Assembly (NCBI GenBank): GCA_965242695.1
Contig: CBDESU010000002.1
Span: forward strand, 1,056,001 to 1,120,000
Direction: 5' to 3'
Source of the DNA: Cenarchaeum sp.
GTDB taxonomy: Archaea > Thermoproteota > Nitrososphaeria > Nitrososphaerales > Nitrosopumilaceae
Length of the DNA stretch: 64,000 bases
The notes beneath the pieces were generated by a model that was not told where the DNA came from, made no database searches, and saw nothing but the letters and a program-made list of their open reading frames with translations. How positions within the stretch are numbered: position 1 is the stretch's first letter; each line of letters opens with the position of its first letter. The position numbers and the translations under genes are program-made. Below are positions 41,565 to 62,341 of the stretch, in pieces.

Positions 41565-41576
41565 GGGGGGGGGGGG
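41565..41576 (+). repeat. G12 homopolymer just upstream of the giant surface protein gene
   Basis: 12 consecutive G ending 13 nt before the ATG at 41590. Confidence 0.85.
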
Positions 41577-55264: not shown

Positions 55265-55957
55265 ATGGGAACCGTCAAGGCGGAGGCGGTAATGGACTCG
55301 CTGCGCTCCTGCATGGATCCAGAGGTGCCGATCAACATCGTCGACATGGGCCTCGTGTACGGCGTCGACGTGGCCGACAACGACGACGTGAACATTAGAA
55401 TGACCATGACGACGCGGGGGTGCCCCCTCCACGACACGCTCGTCTCGGACGTGACGCGCTACGCAAAGAAGGTGCCGGGCGTGAACGGCGTAAGGGTCGA
55501 CATCGTGTGGGACCCGCCGTGGACCATGGACAAGCTCTCGGACGAGGCACGCCGGACGCTCGACAAGATGCGCTCGGCGATGGCCGGCCCGCTCAACACG
55601 CCGGCGCCCATAGACTACGAGACGGCCACGCCGCAGGGCGTCGGCAAGATCGTAAAGCAGGAGGACGGCTCGATGGTTCTCGCCAACGAGCACGACCAGG
55701 GGTTCATGGTGAACCAGGCGATCGTCGACTTTTGGAGGTCGTGCAACGGGCAGCGCAAGATCACCGAGCTCGTCGGCATGTTTGCGCAGCAGACGGGCAT
55801 GCAGCGCGGACAGGTCGAAAAGGAGGTGCTGCAGCTGGTCAACCAGCTGCGCGACGGCGGGCTGCTTGTGATACCGAGTGCAGGGAGTGAACCCGTAGAC
55901 GCAGTTGCTGGTTCGTATCCGCCCAATACCCCAAACGTTGAGTTTAAACGTAAGTAG
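55265..55957 (+). CDS. DUF59/MIP18 Fe-S assembly domain protein with C-terminal PqqD-like domain
   Basis: DPEVPINIVDMGLVY, MT..GCP, VWDPPW; C-terminal N.....FW..C.G......L...L..L...GL. Confidence 0.85.
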   Translation: MGTVKAEAVMDSLRSCMDPEVPINIVDMGLVYGVDVADNDDVNIRMTMTTRGCPLHDTLVSDVTRYAKKVPGVNGVRVDIVWDPPWTMDKLSDEARRTLDKMRSAMAGPLNTPAPIDYETATPQGVGKIVKQEDGSMVLANEHDQGFMVNQAIVDFWRSCNGQRKITELVGMFAQQTGMQRGQVEKEVLQLVNQLRDGGLLVIPSAGSEPVDAVAGSYPPNTPNVEFKRK

Positions 55958-55971
55958 AGTGGTGACTCACG

Positions 55972-58900
55972 ATGTCTACCGCTAGCGATGCAGGGTTAAC
56001 ATTTGATAAACTACTTGCCACAATCCGTAGTGAACCTAACAAGTCAAAAAGAGGCACTAAATTTGAAGAGTTGGTGGTAAACTTTTTTAAAAAAGACACT
56101 ACTTATAAAAACTATTTCTCGACAGTGTGGTGGTTTAAAGACTGGCCTGAGCGAAATCGCCGTGACACGGGTATTGACATTGTCGGTCAAATTGCTGATA
56201 CAGGAGAATATGTAGGAATACAATGTAAATGCTATGACGATAACACGCCGTTAGATTATGCCGGAGTGACAAAATTTCTTACAGCATGCAAGAGCTATGG
56301 TATATCTAAATATATTTATGCATGCACAAGTGATAAAATCACACCTGAATCCGAACGGACGATACGCGAAAACAAGATTGCCCTGTTAAACAAATCTAGC
56401 TTTCGTAAATGTTCAATCAAAAACTGGAGCTCACACTTTGACAAGATAATCGTCACGGAACCCAAAGCGCTTAGGCGTGATCAAGAAAAGGTCTGCAGTG
56501 ATGTCATAAATGGTTTCAAAAGTCACTCTCGTGGAAAGCTCTTGATGGCATGCGGTACGGGTAAAACTATTACCTCGCTCAGAATTGCTGAAAAATTAGA
56601 GTGCAAGACGGTGTTGTACTTGGTACCGTCCATATCACTCATACAGCAGACAATGAGAGAGTGGTCGGATAATTCTCTTGGCAAGTATCAATACATCGCT
56701 GTTTGTTCTGACGATTCTGCTGGACGTGATGAGGGAGGACAAATCTATGAGCTTGAACGCCCTCCATCCACCAACGCAGCCAGTTTCATTGAGCAACTCT
56801 CAAGACGTGATTTGTATGACATGTGCGTCATTTTTTCTACGTACCAGTCAATTGATATCGTGGCTTCTGGCCTTGACAAACTCGGGGGGGGGGGGGCGCG
56901 GCTGGCGAAAAGACACAAATTGATCTAATACTTTGTGATGAAGCACACAAGACTGCCACCAAGATACATTCCAGCGCAAACAATACGACAAAGTATGTTG
57001 GCTACTATGGTAAAATCCATGATGATGAATTCATTGCAGGCAAAAGGCGCCTTTACATGACTGCCACCCCAAAAATTTACGAAAGCAATAATAAAGACGT
57101 ATATTCAATGAACGACGAAGAAGTGTTTGGCCCCACGTTCAGCATCATATCATTTTATGATGCCGTTCATGGCAAAGAACGTATACTGTCTGACTTTAAG
57201 GTTAAGATAGCTATTTTGCCCGAAGATCGACTTCCTCAATACTTGGGAATTGTTGAGAGCCTGCGTGATCCGAACACTCCTGAAAATACAAAACTTAAAG
57301 CGAAATTGTTAGAACATAAGGCAAAATGTGCGGCCGCGTGGCATGGTATACTAAAACCTGGCGATGATCCGCTAATGAACAAGCCACTTCAAAAAGTTAT
57401 CGTCTTTACCAACACTATTGAAAAATCAAAGGTGTTTGCAGGTGCCATTGAAAAAAAAGAACATGGAAGTTTCACTGCAATCGCAAGTGAGTATAATGCA
57501 CACTATAGGATTCCACAATTGTCCTCTATAAAACACATTGACGGCACAATGTTATCATACCAACGTCGCCTTGGTTTAGATTGGCTAGATCAAAGCAGTG
57601 ATCACCCGAACGAAACTCGCATCATTTCCAATGCAAAGTGTCTATCAGAGGGAGTTGACGTGCCGAGCCTTGATGGGGTAATTTTTATGGAGCCCAAACG
57701 ATCGACAGTTGACGTTGTTCAATCTGTGGGCCGGGTCATGCGTACTGCACCAGATAAAGATTTTGGTTATGTAATATTGCCTGTCGTTGTACCTGGTGGT
57801 TCTTCAGCTGACGAAATACTCAAAAATAGCAGCTTCGCGCATGTGTGGGAAGTGTTAAACGCACTCCGTTCTCATGATCCTAGATTAATTGCCGAACTTA
57901 GCTCTGCTGGATTGGTACGCGATCCCTCTTCACGCAACGGAACCGGCACTCCTCGCATCCAAGTAGATTTTTTGGGCATTGATCCACAAAAGGAAGCACA
58001 ACTATACGCCGACCTTACTTTGGCGATGCGCTCAAAGCTCGTCAAAAAAGTTGGAACTATCGACTATGTTCAAAAGTATGGGGCCAAATTAGGTGCCTAT
58101 GCCAAAAAAATCAAAGATTATATCGATGTTCAGTACAGTAAAAATTCGAACACGATGAAAACAATGGATAAATTTCATCATGATATGAAATTACTGATAA
58201 ATTCTAGCGTGACAATTAATGACTCAATTAAAATGATATCACAACATGTCATATTAAAACATGTTTTCGATGCACTATTTTATGATGATTTTGCTAGTGA
58301 AAACCCCGTGTCTAAAAAACTTGACTCTGTACTAAAATCTTTAAATCTTGGAAATGTCCTTGCCGGCCTTGGAGACTTTTATGAAGATGTGCGGCGTGAA
58401 ACGGAAGTAATTAATAATTCACCTGATGAAGATGAAAAGCATGTGCGACGGCAAGAATTCATGAGGCGTATATATGAAAGCTTCATAACTAGTTCTGATA
58501 AAAAAACATCCATAGAAAAAGGCATTGTCTATACACCTGTCGAAATAGCAGATTTTATTATTAATAGTGTTCAACACTTATTAAAAACAAGAATTAAAAA
58601 AACACTTGGCCAGTATGATGTACAAATACTTGAGCCATTTGCAGGCACCGGTACATTCTTAACAAGATCAATTGACTTGGGACTATTAGACAGGTCGTTG
58701 CCTCAAAAATACTTTACTAGCATGCATGCAAATGAAATTGTACTACTTGCATATTACATTGCGGCAGTCAACATGGAAACCGTCTATGCACGGCGTATGA
58801 AAAAGCTTGGCCAAAAAGTTAAATACTCACCATTTCCCAATATTAACTACACAGATACATTAAAACAGAATCCTCGTGAACATCTTGTTGGATCGGTTGC

Positions 58901-60698
58901 ATTAACACAATACATGGATGATGATTATGTTCAAAACCTCCTTAATAAAATACAACGTCAAAACCTCCAGTGCGTAGAGGTTATCATTGGGAACCCTCCC
59001 TGGGGTGTTGCCCCTAAAGACAAAAAAAGACAAAATGCTCCCACCCGTGCACGAATGCCATACGATGTTCAAGCTCGCATAAATGAGACGTATAGAACGA
59101 AGACTACTGTTGGTGCAAAGAAACTTCATGAATGGTACATCCGTGCTCTGCGGTGGGCATCAGACCGAATTGGGAAATGTGGTATAATTGGATTTGTAAT
59201 AAACGGCAGCCTTGTCACTGCGCCCTCTTTTGCCGGTGTTCGTTTTTTCTTGCATCAAGAATTCGATGAAATACTATACATTGATCTCCGTGGAAAAAAA
59301 GGTAGAAATGGTGACGGGCGTAACATATTTGAATATCCGGGTGTAGGCACTGGTGGGACCACATCGGGTGTTGGATTATTGTTTTTAATAAAAAAACCTG
59401 GCATACACAATTCTAAAAAACACATTTGGTATTATCAGTTAGATGACAAATATAATTCTGGACAGGCCAAACGTGAATTTCTAAAGAAAACAAAGTCGCT
59501 TAAATCGATAACTGATTGGGTAGAGGTCATACCCAATGATAACAATGATTGGTTAGACAAAAGCGATGACACACAATTTTTATCCTACATGCCGATTGAT
59601 ACTTCAAAGGAACGACGTGGGATTTTTATACATAGTAAAAACGGTGTTGTCACTAGTCAAGATGAGTGGGTCTATAATATTTCTAAAACAAATTTAATTA
59701 AAAACATGAAGAATTATATCGAATATATGAATGAAAACATCTATACACCTAATTTCAAAGACGATCATAATCCTAAACGCGGTAAATGGACACGCGATAC
59801 AATTAGTAGATTACGTAATCATGGTATGCAAACTTTTCAAACAAAAAAAATTAGGCCAGCACTATATAGGCCCTTTTTCACTCAATATCTTTATTTTGAC
59901 TGGATATTCAACGCTAGCTGGAACGTAAATGAAATTTTGCCTCGCTCCAGCACTGAAAACAAGATCATCCTGGTTTCATGGGGGGCCGATCTAGATCTTT
60001 CTGTACTAATGACAAACCTTACTCCTGATCTGCACGTTCTTGGCACAAACAAGTGCTTTCCGTTGTACTATTATCAAAATAACACAAAAATTAATAATAT
60101 TGATAACTCTGCACTAGTTGATTTTCAAGATTATTATTCTGATAAAACGATTAGTAGTGATGATATTTTTTATTATGTATATGGAATTTTACACCACCGA
60201 CAGTATCAAGCTACATTTAGAAATAGCTTAAAAAAATATTTGCCGCATATACCATTTGCATCTGATTACAAATCATTTTCATTGATTTCAGAAGTTGGTA
60301 GACAGTTGTCTCATTTGCATCTAAATTTTGACAATCTGAAAACTATCTTACCAGAAGTCATTGTAAACCCGATCACAAATATAAAGAAACCTATTAAAAA
60401 TATTAAATTTGCTGATGATCGCATCCACGCTGAATCCACATTACTAATAAATGGCGATGTTGTCTATGATAATTTACCTAAAGTTACTTATACACTTAAT
60501 GGCCGAACACCGCTAGGGTGGTTCGTTGATCGATGTAGAGAATATCAAAGACCGTATAAAAAATCTGGACTATCTAATCCTATTTTTGAAAATATAACGA
60601 ATGATAGTTTGATGACTCATATAAGACGACTACTACATGTGGGCATTATGACCGAGCGTCATATTGATAAGTTACCAATGGACTTCCTAACTACTTAA
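55972..60698 (+). CDS. Type ISP (LlaGI/LlaBIII-like) restriction-modification enzyme, out of frame at a G13 tract (~1575 aa if in frame)
   Basis: Mrr-like G..FE...DTGID...IQCK; SF2 motifs MACGTGKT, LVPSISL, STYQS, then (other frame) CDEAH, MTATP, LSEGVDVP.LD, QSVGRVMR; MTase GIVYTP, EPFAGTG, GNPPW; C-terminal TRD; AT-rich. Confidence 0.9.
56884..56896 (+). repeat. G13 homopolymer at the frameshift of the Type ISP gene
   Basis: CTC-G13-CGCGG; G11 or G14 restores LGGGG(G)AAGEKTQIDLILCDEAH. Confidence 0.9.
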
Positions 60699-60759
60699 CC
60701 TATGAACCTAAGACGTAAAGCCCGTTACGGGCACAAAGATCTGGAAGTCTGTTCATATT

Positions 60760-62341
60760 AGAAGGTAGTCATAAACCCCCCTCAGGCGTGACGGGCCCCC
60801 GCGTAGGTCAACAATATTAGGCCATCCGCGTGCGAAAATTGACAACCGGGGTGCTGTATTCCGGCGGCAGACAGGGTGACGTTGGGAACCAAGCAAGAGC
60901 TAGTAGAGGTGGCCGAGGGCTTTTTCGAAAAGGGCCACGACAAGCGCAAGGTCCGGAGTATCGGCGAGTGGCGGCAGGCGGCCCACGACGAAATGATGGA
61001 GGGGCTGCCGGACGGAATGGCCGTGAACAGGTGCACCACTTCCGAGCTGTGCCGCACCCTGCTCGACCGCATGATTGCCGACGACGCGCAGCTGAGGAAG
61101 CTCACGCTCATGGATCCCGTCCTCTTCTTCTACGCAGTGGCCATGGTGGAGGAGATATTCGAGCGAGAGCGGGGGATCCTCCTGTTCGAGGACGACGAGG
61201 GGCGGAGCCGCGATCCGGGCCGCCGCGCAAGGCTCCTGCCCAGGCACATAATCCTGCTGTACCTCTGGTACGCCAAGACGAACGCCTCCCAGGACAGCAT
61301 TGCCATCCAGATGGGGATCGGGCAGAAGACTGCGAGCCGCTACATAGCGATCGCCAAGGATGTGCTGTCCCGGACGCTCCCGACGCCGCGCAAGTACGAC
61401 GAGCACATCCAGAGGCAGACCGCCATGCGCGAGATGAAAAAGTACCTGCCGGGGCCGGGCCGCGGCACGTGCATCGAGGACGGCAGGCTCAACAGGATGC
61501 AGCGGCCGGGGCAGAGGGGCCCGCGCGACAGGTCGTACAGCGGGCGCAGAAAGGCCTGCATGGGCAACACGCTGGGCAGGTTCAACGCCCGCGGCGAGAT
61601 GGTCTCGGCGAGCCCGACCGACAGGGGCACGCTCAACGACGTCACCATGGCGAGGAAGTACCGCCTGAACCTGGGCATAGCCACGCAATACCTGCACGAT
61701 CCGCACGCGGCGCCGAAGGACCGCGTTCGCCGCATCGAGGACACGGGGTTCGCCGGCATCGAGACGGAGGAGCCCGGCGTCGTCTACGGAAGGACGGTCG
61801 GGTACAAGGCGTACCAGAAGCTCGACGACGAGGGCAAGGCCAGGAACCGGGACATCGCGAGAAGAAGGCTGCCCTCGGAGTGGTTCTTTGGGCGCATCAG
61901 CCGCTACGCCCGGATGCGCGATCCGTATGCCGGGACATACAGCGAGTACAGCGACGAGCACAATGTGGTCTGCGGCGTGGTGAACCTGCACCTCATGGCG
62001 GGCGGCGTGCGGGAGGGATCCGGCCACCCGAAGAAGCCCGAGTCCGGGCGGCAGCGCAGGCATCGGCGGGACCTGGAGGCGGACGAAGGGGCGATCGACA
62101 GAGTGGCAGCCGACTCAAGGCGGCTCGTGGAGCACGGCGGATTTATCGCCAGCTAAAGATCGGCGGCAGTGCCTTTCAGGAACGGAAGAGATGGCAAAGG
62201 CAGCCGACTTGAATCCCTTGCACTTCCGCAACACATGAACCTTTCAAGATCGGCGCCGTATTTTCTCACTGCGCTCCGTCGAATTTCGTCAAGTCCGAGG
62301 TTCTGCCCAACGGGGGGGGGGGGGGTTTATGACTACCTTCT
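60760..62341. mobile_element. Complete IS5/ISL2-PIF/Harbinger-like insertion sequence (~1.58 kb)
   Basis: Perfect 22-bp TIR AGAAGGTAGTCATAAACCCCCC at both ends; 3-bp TSD ATT (60757-59, 62342-44), or TA if the ends lie one base inward. Confidence 0.9.
60876..62156 (+). CDS. DDE_Tnp_4-type transposase with HTH
   Basis: HTH SQDSIAIQMGIGQKTASRYI; D1 IEDG, YSG.RK, G..ND, D2 EDTGFAG, R...E..FG.I. Confidence 0.85.
   Translation: MTLGTKQELVEVAEGFFEKGHDKRKVRSIGEWRQAAHDEMMEGLPDGMAVNRCTTSELCRTLLDRMIADDAQLRKLTLMDPVLFFYAVAMVEEIFERERGILLFEDDEGRSRDPGRRARLLPRHIILLYLWYAKTNASQDSIAIQMGIGQKTASRYIAIAKDVLSRTLPTPRKYDEHIQRQTAMREMKKYLPGPGRGTCIEDGRLNRMQRPGQRGPRDRSYSGRRKACMGNTLGRFNARGEMVSASPTDRGTLNDVTMARKYRLNLGIATQYLHDPHAAPKDRVRRIEDTGFAGIETEEPGVVYGRTVGYKAYQKLDDEGKARNRDIARRRLPSEWFFGRISRYARMRDPYAGTYSEYSDEHNVVCGVVNLHLMAGGVREGSGHPKKPESGRQRRHRRDLEADEGAIDRVAADSRRLVEHGGFIAS

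What the first reader, a model, noticed from the sequence alone, without database searches (positions are those of the whole stretch)
55972..60698. Poly-G ON/OFF switch in an archaeal Type ISP restriction-modification gene (candidate archaeal phasevarion)
Seen: the 318-aa and 1213-aa ORFs are one nuclease-helicase-methyltransferase-TRD gene, broken only at G13 (56884-56896) between helicase motif I and the DEAH motif II. G11 or G14 gives a ~1575-aa protein, the size of LlaGI/LlaBIII; G12 and G13 give premature stops. A long G run is very unlikely by chance in this AT-rich gene, it encodes a Gly linker, and the rest of the gene is intact. Known: slipped-strand poly-G switches in methyltransferase genes cause phase-variable methylomes in host-adapted bacteria (e.g. 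Campylobacter, Helicobacter). Inference: reversible switching of both restriction and genome-wide m6A methylation in an archaeon; I am not aware of a described case.
Basis: partly seen in the sequence, partly recalled or inferred. Interest (0 to 1): 0.88.

Follow-up and report, generated by a model that had tools for sequence, protein, structure and literature searches.

The report
Poly-G switch in archaeal restriction gene
A run of 13 G's splits an otherwise intact restriction-modification gene in an ammonia-oxidising archaeon, and related copies carry the same run both in and out of frame, which looks like the on/off phase variation so far described only in bacteria.

Summary
G13 (56884-56896) is the only break in a 1575-codon Type ISP restriction-modification gene: G11 or G14 opens it, G12 or G13 stops it. 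The gene sits on a 38.7% GC, strain-variable island in a 67-68% GC archaeal genome (archaeal 16S, amoA).

New evidence favours a hypermutable ON/OFF tract over a dead gene. Seven diverged orthologs (78-88% identical) all have a Gly/G run at this site. Two are in frame and five are split exactly there, using both wrong frames, with every half otherwise intact. More distant homologs lack the run. Assembly graphs of three further runs break at the tract, and one run holds a G12 variant.

The tract is not isolated. The genome has 252 G/C runs of 9 or more. The in-ORF runs I checked lie in a second Type ISP gene, two MmeI-like RM genes, a helicase, a glycosyltransferase, a giant gene and an unknown ORF. 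Two more runs follow DNA methylase ORFs. Forty-two lie just upstream of giant genes.

Not shown: an ON allele in this strain, reversibility, methylation, or any regulon. The "phasevarion" idea is untested. My searches found no archaeal precedent. Best reading: slipped-strand phase variation, confidence 0.6.

The parts
55872..60759 (+). Low-GC (about 39%) strain-variable island that carries only the Type ISP gene
   Evidence: GC profile. In other strains the sequence diverges after 55871 (X3) and 55873 (X4). In X3 the island has depth 32-59 against 411 on the left flank. Synteny with congener G004 stops at about 55885. The right edge is taken as the start of the IS at 60760.
55972..56928 (+). 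N-terminal reading frame (318 aa): Mrr-like nuclease plus the first part of the helicase with motif I; it ends 10 codons after the run
   Evidence: Mrr_cat_2 residues 40-141, ResIII 166-294; GTGKT at residue 195.
56884..56896 (+). G13 homopolymer, the frame-setting tract; it encodes a Gly run (LGGGG)
   Evidence: Relative to LlaBIII the Gly run is a 5-residue insertion just before motif II.
56898..60698 (+). C-terminal reading frame (1266 codons open; first ATG at 57057 gives 1213 aa): DEAH, Helicase_C, coupler, N6-adenine MTase (NPPW), Type ISP specificity domain
   Evidence: Helicase_C 162-283, ISP_coupler 390-508, N6_Mtase 520-713, Type_ISP_C 909-1217 of the 1266-aa frame; DEAH at 14, NPPW at 699.
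60760..62341 (+). Neighbouring IS element (DDE_Tnp_4 transposase at 60876-62156). Its inverted ends carry C6 on the left and G14 on the right (62312-62325). It is context, not part of the enzyme.
   Evidence: Loose ends fall exactly at 60759 and 62341, and a -3 variant of the G14 is present in X3 (214.5 of 640.8) and X4.

Best explanation
The locus is a single-polypeptide Type ISP restriction-modification enzyme of the LlaGI/LlaBIII kind, acquired horizontally on a low-GC island. Its reading frame is set by a hypermutable poly-G tract in a loop of the helicase N-lobe. Slipped-strand mispairing at replication changes the run length. Lengths of 11, 14 and so on give the full nuclease-helicase-methylase-TRD protein (ON). 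Other lengths, including the G13 seen here, end translation after 318 residues (OFF), which abolishes restriction. The population therefore carries a heritable, reversible mix of restricting and non-restricting cells, which is phase variation of a defence gene. Shown: the anatomy, the frame arithmetic, conservation of the tract with mixed frames in orthologs, and length variants between and within samples. Inferred: slippage as the mechanism, reversibility, and that ON alleles are active. Whether methylation is lost in the OFF state is open.
For: (1) The tract is far beyond chance in a gene with 19.5% G.
(2) Family membership is solid.
(3) All 7 members of the close clade (78-88% pairwise identity in the C part) have a Gly run at this site. 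P0004 and P0006 read through it (1574 and 1572 aa). The window's gene plus the pairs P0002/P0123, P0003/P0122 and P0005/P0125 are split exactly there. P0007 lacks its N part, and a further N fragment, P0124, also ends at the run. From the peptide tails, four N fragments use the 'one base short' frame (...LI*) and one uses the other wrong frame (...NKVRG*). Gly counts run from 3 to 6, so the lengths differ (inference from the tails).
(4) ON and OFF are interspersed on the tree: P0004 (ON) is sister to P0005 (OFF), support 1.00.
(5) Only 3 of 99 fetched homologs over 1000 aa that have a DEAH motif show GGGG within 30 residues before it, and all 3 belong to this clade. The 58-69% homologs lack it. 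The run is therefore a derived, retained insertion.
(6) Alleles that are OFF today evolved under constraint. Among the three OFF alleles the helicase is 93% identical, the MTase 90% and the TRD 74-75%, and no half carries another stop. About 4.6-5.2% of single-base changes in this gene would create a stop. Roughly a dozen stops would therefore be expected over 15% protein divergence if the gene were neutral (rough inference).
(7) Reads: the X1 contig spans the tract as G13. Contigs of X3, X4 and X5 all end or begin at the tract. X4 holds a G12 contig at depth 64.7, with 612.5 summed at that place.
(8) Genome context:
- Only 6 of 252 runs of 9 or more have coding signal on both sides.
- With the low-GC cases, the in-ORF tracts fall in a second Type ISP gene (G11, in frame), two MmeI/Eco57I-like RM genes (C12 out of frame, C10 in frame), a DEAD/ResIII helicase (G9, out of frame), a GT2 glycosyltransferase-methyltransferase (G11, in frame), a 21-kb gene (C9, in frame) and an unknown ORF.
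- G22 and G14 directly follow two N6_N4 DNA-methylase ORFs.
- A congener (G002) has G10 in its ISP gene at the same loop as ISP2, out of frame; G9 or G12 would give 1558/1559 aa.
- MutS_V was not found in the genome.
Against: No ON allele (G11 or G14) was seen for this strain; the two lengths seen, G13 and G12, are both OFF. The laid runs are contigs, not reads, so allele frequencies cannot be measured, and a 1-in-6 to 1-in-4 G12 share could be PCR or sequencing stutter at a 13-mer. Contig breaks at a homopolymer also arise from low-quality reads. I could not fetch the ortholog DNA, so their frames come from others' gene calls on metagenome assemblies, where homopolymer consensus errors are possible. 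I did not establish whether those orthologs sit in archaea. The genome seems to expand G runs generally: the IS ends are C6 against G14, and the C12 in the MmeI-like gene is absent from its closest orthologs. The tract could therefore be a mutational by-product rather than a selected switch. Slippage rates in archaea of this group are unknown.
Confidence: 0.6

Rival explanations
1. Recent inactivation without function as a switch. This lineage has a mutational bias that lengthens G/C runs, and the run in a dispensable, horizontally acquired RM gene has drifted out of frame. The gene is on its way to decay, and the ON/OFF pattern among orthologs only records independent losses.
For: The single IS copy has C6 at one inverted end and G14 at the other. 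The C12 in the MmeI-like gene replaces 'GPxP' of its closest orthologs, which are full length. Poly-G words are abundant in the three large genomes of the genus and rare or absent elsewhere. Both lengths seen in the population are OFF. The island is missing from co-occurring strains.
Against: Five OFF alleles that differ by 12-22% in protein have no second lesion in either half. They also show domain-wise constraint: helicase and MTase at about 90-93% against TRD at about 75%. The run has been kept across the whole clade while its frame changed at least twice on the tree.
Confidence: 0.18
2. The DNA is fixed out of frame, but full-length enzyme is still made by transcriptional slippage of the RNA polymerase on the G13/C13 template, or by ribosomal frameshifting. 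The gene would then be constitutively expressed at a low level rather than switched.
For: Long homopolymers are classical slippage sites (established knowledge from bacteria, endosymbionts and viruses; recalled). Most orthologs (5 of 7) sit out of frame yet stay intact.
Against: In-frame alleles exist (P0004, P0006). Two different wrong frames are used, so no single programmed shift fits. The known slippage cases I recall are mostly A/T runs. There are no RNA data.
Confidence: 0.1
3. Assembly or sequencing artefact: the true length is in frame, and G13 is a homopolymer miscall in the assembly.
For: Homopolymers of this length are error-prone on every platform. The best holder, X1, may be the sample the genome was assembled from, so it is not independent.
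Against: A k-mer contig of X1 at depth 34 reads G13 with 0 differences over 5.7 kb. Another sample (X4) shows G12 as its only listed variant at the site, and G12 is also out of frame. Four independent ortholog assemblies are also split at the run.
Confidence: 0.05

Closest known systems
LlaGI / LlaBIII, Type ISP restriction-modification enzymes of Lactococcus (PDB 5ffj, 4xqk)
   Same: The domain order is the same in one polypeptide of about 1575 residues: Mrr-like nuclease, SF2 helicase-like motor, coupler, N6-adenine methylase, C-terminal specificity domain. The 79%-identical ortholog P0004 aligns to LlaBIII over residues 8-1569 (E 2e-202). Pfam finds Type_ISP_C and ISP_coupler in the window's gene.
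   Different: The gene is archaeal and interrupted by a G13. The Gly run is a 5-residue insertion absent from LlaBIII. No homopolymer switch is described for these enzymes in the papers my search returned (listing; two of the eight read in passages).
Phase-variable RM genes of host-adapted bacteria: Type III mod genes, Type I hsd genes with repeats, and poly-G RM genes of Campylobacter, Helicobacter, Neisseria and Haemophilus
   Same: A homopolymer or short repeat inside the ORF shifts the frame through replication slippage and gives ON/OFF subpopulations. RM systems and surface structures are the main gene classes affected (reviews PMC12707154 and PMC11868660, passages read).
   Different: The host is an archaeon and the enzyme class is Type ISP. 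The main texts of the REBASE repeat surveys do not mention archaea: PMC7383803 and PMC5909438 each had 0 occurrences. Their supplements were not visible. Switching has not been shown experimentally here.
Frameshifted Type ISP locus HP0667-0669 of Helicobacter pylori 26695
   Same: A Type ISP gene is split into pieces by frameshifts, and the MTase plus specificity piece alone is an active m6A methylase (PMC3936762, passages read). This is the precedent for a possible restriction-off, methylation-on state of the 1213-aa ORF here.
   Different: The paper states that those frameshifts are not due to sequence repeats, so they are fixed lesions rather than a switch.
Multi-locus contingency genomes, e.g. 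Campylobacter jejuni NCTC11168 with 29 polyG/polyC loci of seven or more repeats (PMC4965091, abstract only)
   Same: Many G/C homopolymers are concentrated in RM, glycosyltransferase and surface-protein genes and in their 5' regions.
   Different: There are about ten times more tracts here (252 of 9 or more), and most lie outside ORFs. They occur in a 68% GC archaeal genome and show near-absolute strand polarity by chromosome half.

Membership tests
Type ISP restriction-modification enzymes (LlaGI/LlaBIII) | N-terminal Mrr-family nuclease domain | tested here: met
   Mrr_cat_2 E 2.3e-23, residues 40-141 of the N part.
Type ISP restriction-modification enzymes (LlaGI/LlaBIII) | SF2 helicase-like ATPase with motif I and motif II (DEAH), plus Helicase_C | tested here: met
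   ResIII and Helicase_C; GTGKT and DEAH are present on either side of the run.
Type ISP restriction-modification enzymes (LlaGI/LlaBIII) | Coupler domain, N6-adenine methylase (NPPW) and the Type ISP C-terminal specificity domain | tested here: met
   ISP_coupler 1.5e-19, N6_Mtase 5.7e-6, Type_ISP_C 2e-68; NPPW present; full-length alignment of ortholog P0004 to 4xqk.
Type ISP restriction-modification enzymes (LlaGI/LlaBIII) | All activities in one polypeptide | tested here: inconclusive
   Not so at G13 (two ORFs). True at G11 or G14 and in orthologs P0004 and P0006.
Type ISP restriction-modification enzymes (LlaGI/LlaBIII) | ATP-dependent translocation, cleavage on collision, hemimethylation of an asymmetric site | not testable with these tools
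   Needs biochemistry or a methylome.
Repeat-mediated phase-variable (contingency) gene | Long simple repeat inside the ORF, beyond chance, whose length sets the frame | tested here: met
Repeat-mediated phase-variable (contingency) gene | Repeat length differs among strains or orthologs, giving ON and OFF alleles of an otherwise intact gene | tested here: met
   2 of 7 are in frame and 5 of 7 are split at the run, using both wrong frames, with the halves intact. This rests on protein calls only; the DNA was not seen.
Repeat-mediated phase-variable (contingency) gene | Length heterogeneity within one population above sequencing error | tested here: inconclusive
   A G12 contig is present beside the reference length in X4, and contigs break at the tract in X3, X4 and X5. 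These are contigs, not reads, and there was no error control.
Repeat-mediated phase-variable (contingency) gene | Reversible switching at high frequency with a phenotype | not testable with these tools
   Needs culture or an expression host, or deep error-corrected sequencing.
Phasevarion (phase-variable methylase controlling a regulon) | Methylase activity that switches with the repeat | not tested
   No methylome was available. The MTase plus TRD part stays as an intact 1213-aa ORF in the OFF state, so methylation may not switch at all.
Phasevarion (phase-variable methylase controlling a regulon) | Differential expression of multiple genes between ON and OFF | not testable with these tools
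   No RNA holder was listed.

The most novel reading that the evidence does not exclude
This ammonia-oxidising archaeon and its two large-genome congeners may run a genome-wide poly-G contingency system, the first multi-locus phase-variable genome outside Bacteria. In-ORF tracts would switch at least four RM enzymes (two Type ISP, two MmeI-like), a helicase and a glycosyltransferase. Two further tracts follow DNA methylase ORFs. Sense-strand tracts just upstream of about 40 giant genes would tune a variable surface. In the Type ISP gene the switch may toggle restriction only, while the intact 1213-aa methylase-specificity ORF keeps the genome protected, so that turning restriction back on is not suicidal.
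Probability: 0.3. Interest if true: 0.85.

Novelty: new variant of a known kind. Interest (0 to 1): 0.7.

Why it matters
Phase variation through simple repeats is a textbook bet-hedging device of host-adapted bacteria. A 2025 review lists its distribution across archaeal phylogenies as future work (PMC11868660, passage read). Two archaeal RM reviews mention phase-variable systems only in an introduction or reference list. A poly-G frame switch in an archaeal RM gene would extend the mechanism to a second domain of life and to the Type ISP enzyme class. The tract is kept across diverged orthologs in all three frames, and it sits in a genome with hundreds of similarly placed tracts. Several questions become testable with data that probably already exist, namely reads of the listed runs. 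Do archaea without MutS use replication slippage for population heterogeneity? Does defence switch on and off in uncultured ammonia oxidisers? Can restriction be uncoupled from methylation in a single-chain RM enzyme?

Tried and rejected
- **Ortholog DNA.** The tool that maps proteins to contigs was closed, so I could not fetch the DNA of the close orthologs. A genome-contig scan gave no relative. The metagenome-contig scan gave 6 loci at 22-26% identity, and the viral-contig scan gave 3 loci at 24-25%.
- **Family search.** A search of 401 genomes of the family found ISP N parts in 24, but none above 49% identity apart from the window's own gene. None of the 11 relatives' loci fetched from it has a G/C run of 8 or more.
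- **Expression.** No RNA holder was listed for the stretch, so nothing can be said about expression.
- **Read depth.** Logan contigs cannot give allele frequencies. I read the depths at the tract only as presence of a G12 form.
- **Island edges.** I first took the loose ends at 60759 and 62341 as island edges. They are the ends of the IS element.
- **Promoter motif.** I looked for a shared TATA-like box next to the tracts. The base profile of 223 tracts shows no general motif; only some paralogous 5' regions have 'TAAATAATAC' directly before the run.
- **Mismatch repair.** NucS_C gave a marginal hit (23.3 bits), so the mismatch-repair status is unresolved. MutS_V was not found.
- **Split enzyme rejected.** I rejected the idea that the two ORFs work as a split two-chain enzyme, because the break lies inside RecA-like lobe 1, between motifs I and II.
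- **Literature.** Searches for an archaeal or Type ISP precedent found none. I could not see the supplements of the REBASE surveys, and they might list archaeal entries.
Full report
**1.

The window has G13 at 56884-56896. Upstream lies a 318-aa ORF (55972-56928). Downstream, a frame is open from 56898, with its first ATG at 57057 (1213 aa, to 60698).

I varied the run length in silico from 9 to 16. G11 and G14 give open frames of 1574 and 1575 codons. Every other length stops at codons 315-319.

Pfam places these domains:
- N part: Mrr_cat_2 and ResIII.
- C part: Helicase_C, ISP_coupler, N6_Mtase and Type_ISP_C (E 2e-68).

GTGKT lies before the run; DEAH and NPPW lie after it.

The gene is 38.7% GC in a 65.6% GC window. 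Its next-longest G run is 6, and the iid expectation of a G run of 13 or more in the gene is 2.3e-6.

**2. The host is an archaeon**

The assembly has two contigs of 2.21 and 1.68 Mb at 67-68% GC. It carries an archaeal 16S (1450 bits to RF01959) and an archaeal amoA.

Both markers are on contig C1, while the window is on C2. Its mtnA-sufT region matches all four congeneric genomes at 70-87% DNA identity, and C2 shares the tract pattern described in section 6.

The nearest named homologs of the ISP protein, at about 40% identity, come from sponge-associated Nitrosopumilaceae-type archaea. That is a hint about lifestyle, not a demonstration.

**3. The gene is a horizontally acquired, strain-variable insert**

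- The low-GC block runs from about 55872 to 60759.
- Other strains in runs X3 and X4 continue with different, GC-rich sequence after 55871 and 55873.
- In X3 the island has depth 32-59 against 411 on the left flank.
- Synteny with the closest congener, G004, stops at about 55885.
- Directly to the right is an IS element (60760-62341) with a DDE_Tnp_4 transposase.

**4. Comparative evidence is the main new result**

A search with the C part found six close relatives, 77-85% identical to the query:
- P0004 (1574 aa) and P0006 (1572 aa) are full length and read 'LGGGG' at the site.
- P0002, P0003, P0005 and P0007 lack the N part.

A search with the N part found four fragments of 280-315 aa that all stop 3-7 residues after a Gly run at the same alignment column.

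So 2 of 7 clade members are in frame and 5 of 7 are split at the run. P0007's partner fragment was not verified.

Further points from these sequences:
- **Frames and lengths.** Four N fragments, including the window's, end '...LI*', the frame produced by one missing base. One ends '...NKVRG*', the other wrong frame. The Gly runs have 3 to 6 residues. Length therefore differs among lineages in both directions (my inference from the peptide tails; the DNA was not seen).
- **Tree.** ON and OFF are interspersed. P0004 (ON) and P0005 (OFF) are sisters at 88.5% identity.
- **Origin of the run.** It is a derived feature. Only 3 of 99 fetched homologs over 1000 aa with a DEAH motif have GGGG within 30 residues before it, all from this clade. 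Relative to LlaBIII it is a 5-residue insertion just before motif II.
- **Constraint.** The three alleles that are OFF today differ from one another like working genes. The helicase is 93% identical, the MTase 90%, and the specificity domain 74-75%. No half has a second stop. About 5% of single-base changes in this gene would make a stop. A copy drifting neutrally over 15% protein divergence should therefore have collected roughly a dozen (rough estimate).

**5. Population data are suggestive but not decisive**

Only Logan contigs were available.
- In X1, which may be the source sample, one contig crosses the tract as G13 with no difference over 5.7 kb.
- In X3, X4 and X5 the contigs end or begin exactly at the tract.
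- X4 holds a contig with one G fewer, at depth 64.7 out of 612.5 summed at that place.
- The G14 of the neighbouring IS shows a three-base-shorter form in X3 (214.5 of 640.8) and in X4.

These results show length variants between and within samples. Contigs cannot separate biology from stutter, and no in-frame length was seen for this strain.

**6. The tract is part of a genome-wide pattern**

- **Number and lengths.** The genome has 252 G or C runs of 9 or more, with a mode at 10-13 and a maximum of 34.
- **Distribution among relatives.** G11 words were counted as overlapping matches on both strands:

| Genome | G11 words |
|---|---|
| G000 (this genome) | 554 |
| G002 (congener, 3.2 Mb) | 464 |
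| G004 (congener, 3.7 Mb) | 552 |
| G001 (congener, 2.0 Mb) | 33 |
| G003 (congener, 1.8 Mb) | 12 |
| G015 | 92 |
| G017 | 28 |

  31 of the 41 genomes searched had none.
- **Position relative to genes.** With a crude GC3-based gene finder, 163 runs are intergenic. Only 6 of 252 have coding signal on both sides.
- **In-ORF cases.** Adding the low-GC cases, Pfam assigns them as follows:
  - a second Type ISP gene (G11, in frame, between motifs I and Ia);
  - two MmeI/Eco57I-like RM genes (C12 out of frame, C10 in frame);
  - a DEAD/ResIII helicase (G9, out of frame);
  - a GT2 glycosyltransferase-methyltransferase (G11, in frame);
  - a 21-kb gene (C9, in frame);
  - one unknown ORF.
- **Runs after methylase genes.** G22 and G14 directly follow two N6_N4 DNA-methylase ORFs.
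- **Congener.** G002 has G10 in its ISP gene at the same loop as the second ISP, out of frame. G9 or G12 would open 1558 or 1559 codons.
- **Giant genes.** 42 tracts lie 200 nt or less upstream of ORFs of at least 1000 aa with G on the sense strand, against 2 in the other orientation. Such ORFs are 136 of 2703 predicted genes.

RM enzymes, a glycosyltransferase and very large genes are the classes that phase-vary in bacteria (reviews).

**7. Caveats pointing the other way**

- The IS has C6 at one inverted end and G14 at the other.
- The C12 of one MmeI-like gene is missing from its closest, full-length orthologs.
- This lineage may therefore simply lengthen G runs wherever selection allows, and MutS was not found.
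- That would make the ISP tract a tolerated mutational hot spot rather than an evolved switch. Its effect on the gene would still be the same.
- A fixed frameshift rescued by transcriptional slippage cannot be excluded without RNA or peptides.

**8. What OFF means is open**

In the OFF state the whole methylase and specificity part remains as an intact 1213-aa ORF. In H. pylori the corresponding piece of a frameshifted Type ISP gene methylates on its own (PMC3936762, passages read). A restriction-only switch is therefore possible. No regulon, and hence no 'phasevarion', has any support yet.

**9. Novelty**

- Full-text searches combining phase variation or phasevarion with archaea, Type ISP, Cenarchaeum, Nitrosopumilaceae or Thaumarchaeota returned no archaeal repeat-switched RM gene and no repeat-switched Type ISP gene.
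- Two archaeal RM reviews cite phase-variable systems only as bacterial background (passages).
- The two REBASE repeat surveys do not mention archaea in their main text. Their supplements were not visible.
- A 2025 review names archaeal phase-variation loci as future work.

The mechanism is a known kind. The domain of life, the enzyme class and the scale of the tract repertoire are new.

**Verdict**

Best explanation: a slipped-strand ON/OFF tract, currently OFF (confidence 0.6). Interest: 0.7.

Noticed in passing
window 41565-41576: G12 lies 13 nt upstream of the ATG (41590) of a 1787-aa ORF with a weak Ig-like (Big_5) hit. Genome-wide, 42 G/C runs lie 200 nt or less upstream of ORFs of at least 1000 aa with G on the sense strand, against 2 in the opposite orientation. 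Several occur as pairs or triplets about 100 nt apart in paralogous 5' regions.
   Followed up: partly
window 60760-62341: An IS element with a DDE_Tnp_4 transposase (60876-62156). Its inverted ends share AGAAGGTAGTCATAAA but carry C6 on the left and G14 on the right. It is the only copy in this genome by the 12-mer test. The G14 has a 3-base-shorter form in runs X3 and X4.
   Followed up: partly
whole genome (G000 C1 and C2): The strand of the runs of 10 or more flips sharply. On C1, 0-1.0 Mb has 64 G against 5 C, and 1.0-2.2 Mb has 10 G against 70 C. On C2, 0-0.6 Mb has 3 G against 18 C, and the rest has 45 G against 8 C. Overall gene orientation is only weakly biased, but giant genes follow the same polarity. 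This looks like replichore structure.
   Followed up: partly
G000 C1:628022-633058 (locus L012): A second, GC-rich Type ISP gene (1619 aa from its ATG; 36-37% identical to the window's) has G11 in frame, encoding 'SGGGA' between motif I and motif Ia. Congener G002 has G10 at the same loop of its own ISP gene (42% identical), out of frame.
   Followed up: yes
G000 C1:1859844-1863051 (L029), C1:1883691-1886780 (L032), C1:1951232-1953871 (L033), C2:763761-765236 (L034): Two MmeI/Eco57I-like RM genes carry a C run between the methylase and the C-terminal part (C12 out of frame, C10 in frame). In two N6_N4 DNA-methylase ORFs, G22 or G14 sits directly before the next ORF. In L034 the G14 lies between a TTTAAA box and an ATG 6 nt after the run.
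   Followed up: partly
G000 C2:300409-302724 (L030) and C1:391322-394665 (L027): G11 is in frame in a GT2 glycosyltransferase plus methyltransferase fusion (772 aa). G9 is out of frame in a DEAD/ResIII helicase (917 + 194 aa).
   Followed up: partly
whole genome G000: MutS domain V was not found (genome 96% complete), and NucS_C gave only a marginal hit (23.3 bits). Absence of canonical mismatch repair would raise homopolymer slippage.
   Followed up: partly
homologs P0171-P0199 of the MmeI-like gene: Many relatives of this RM gene in public metagenomes carry Gly or Pro runs at other positions. For example, P0196, from a 3.98-Mb contig, has runs of 8 and 9 Gly. Homopolymer tracts in RM genes may therefore be widespread in this group of archaea.
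   Followed up: no
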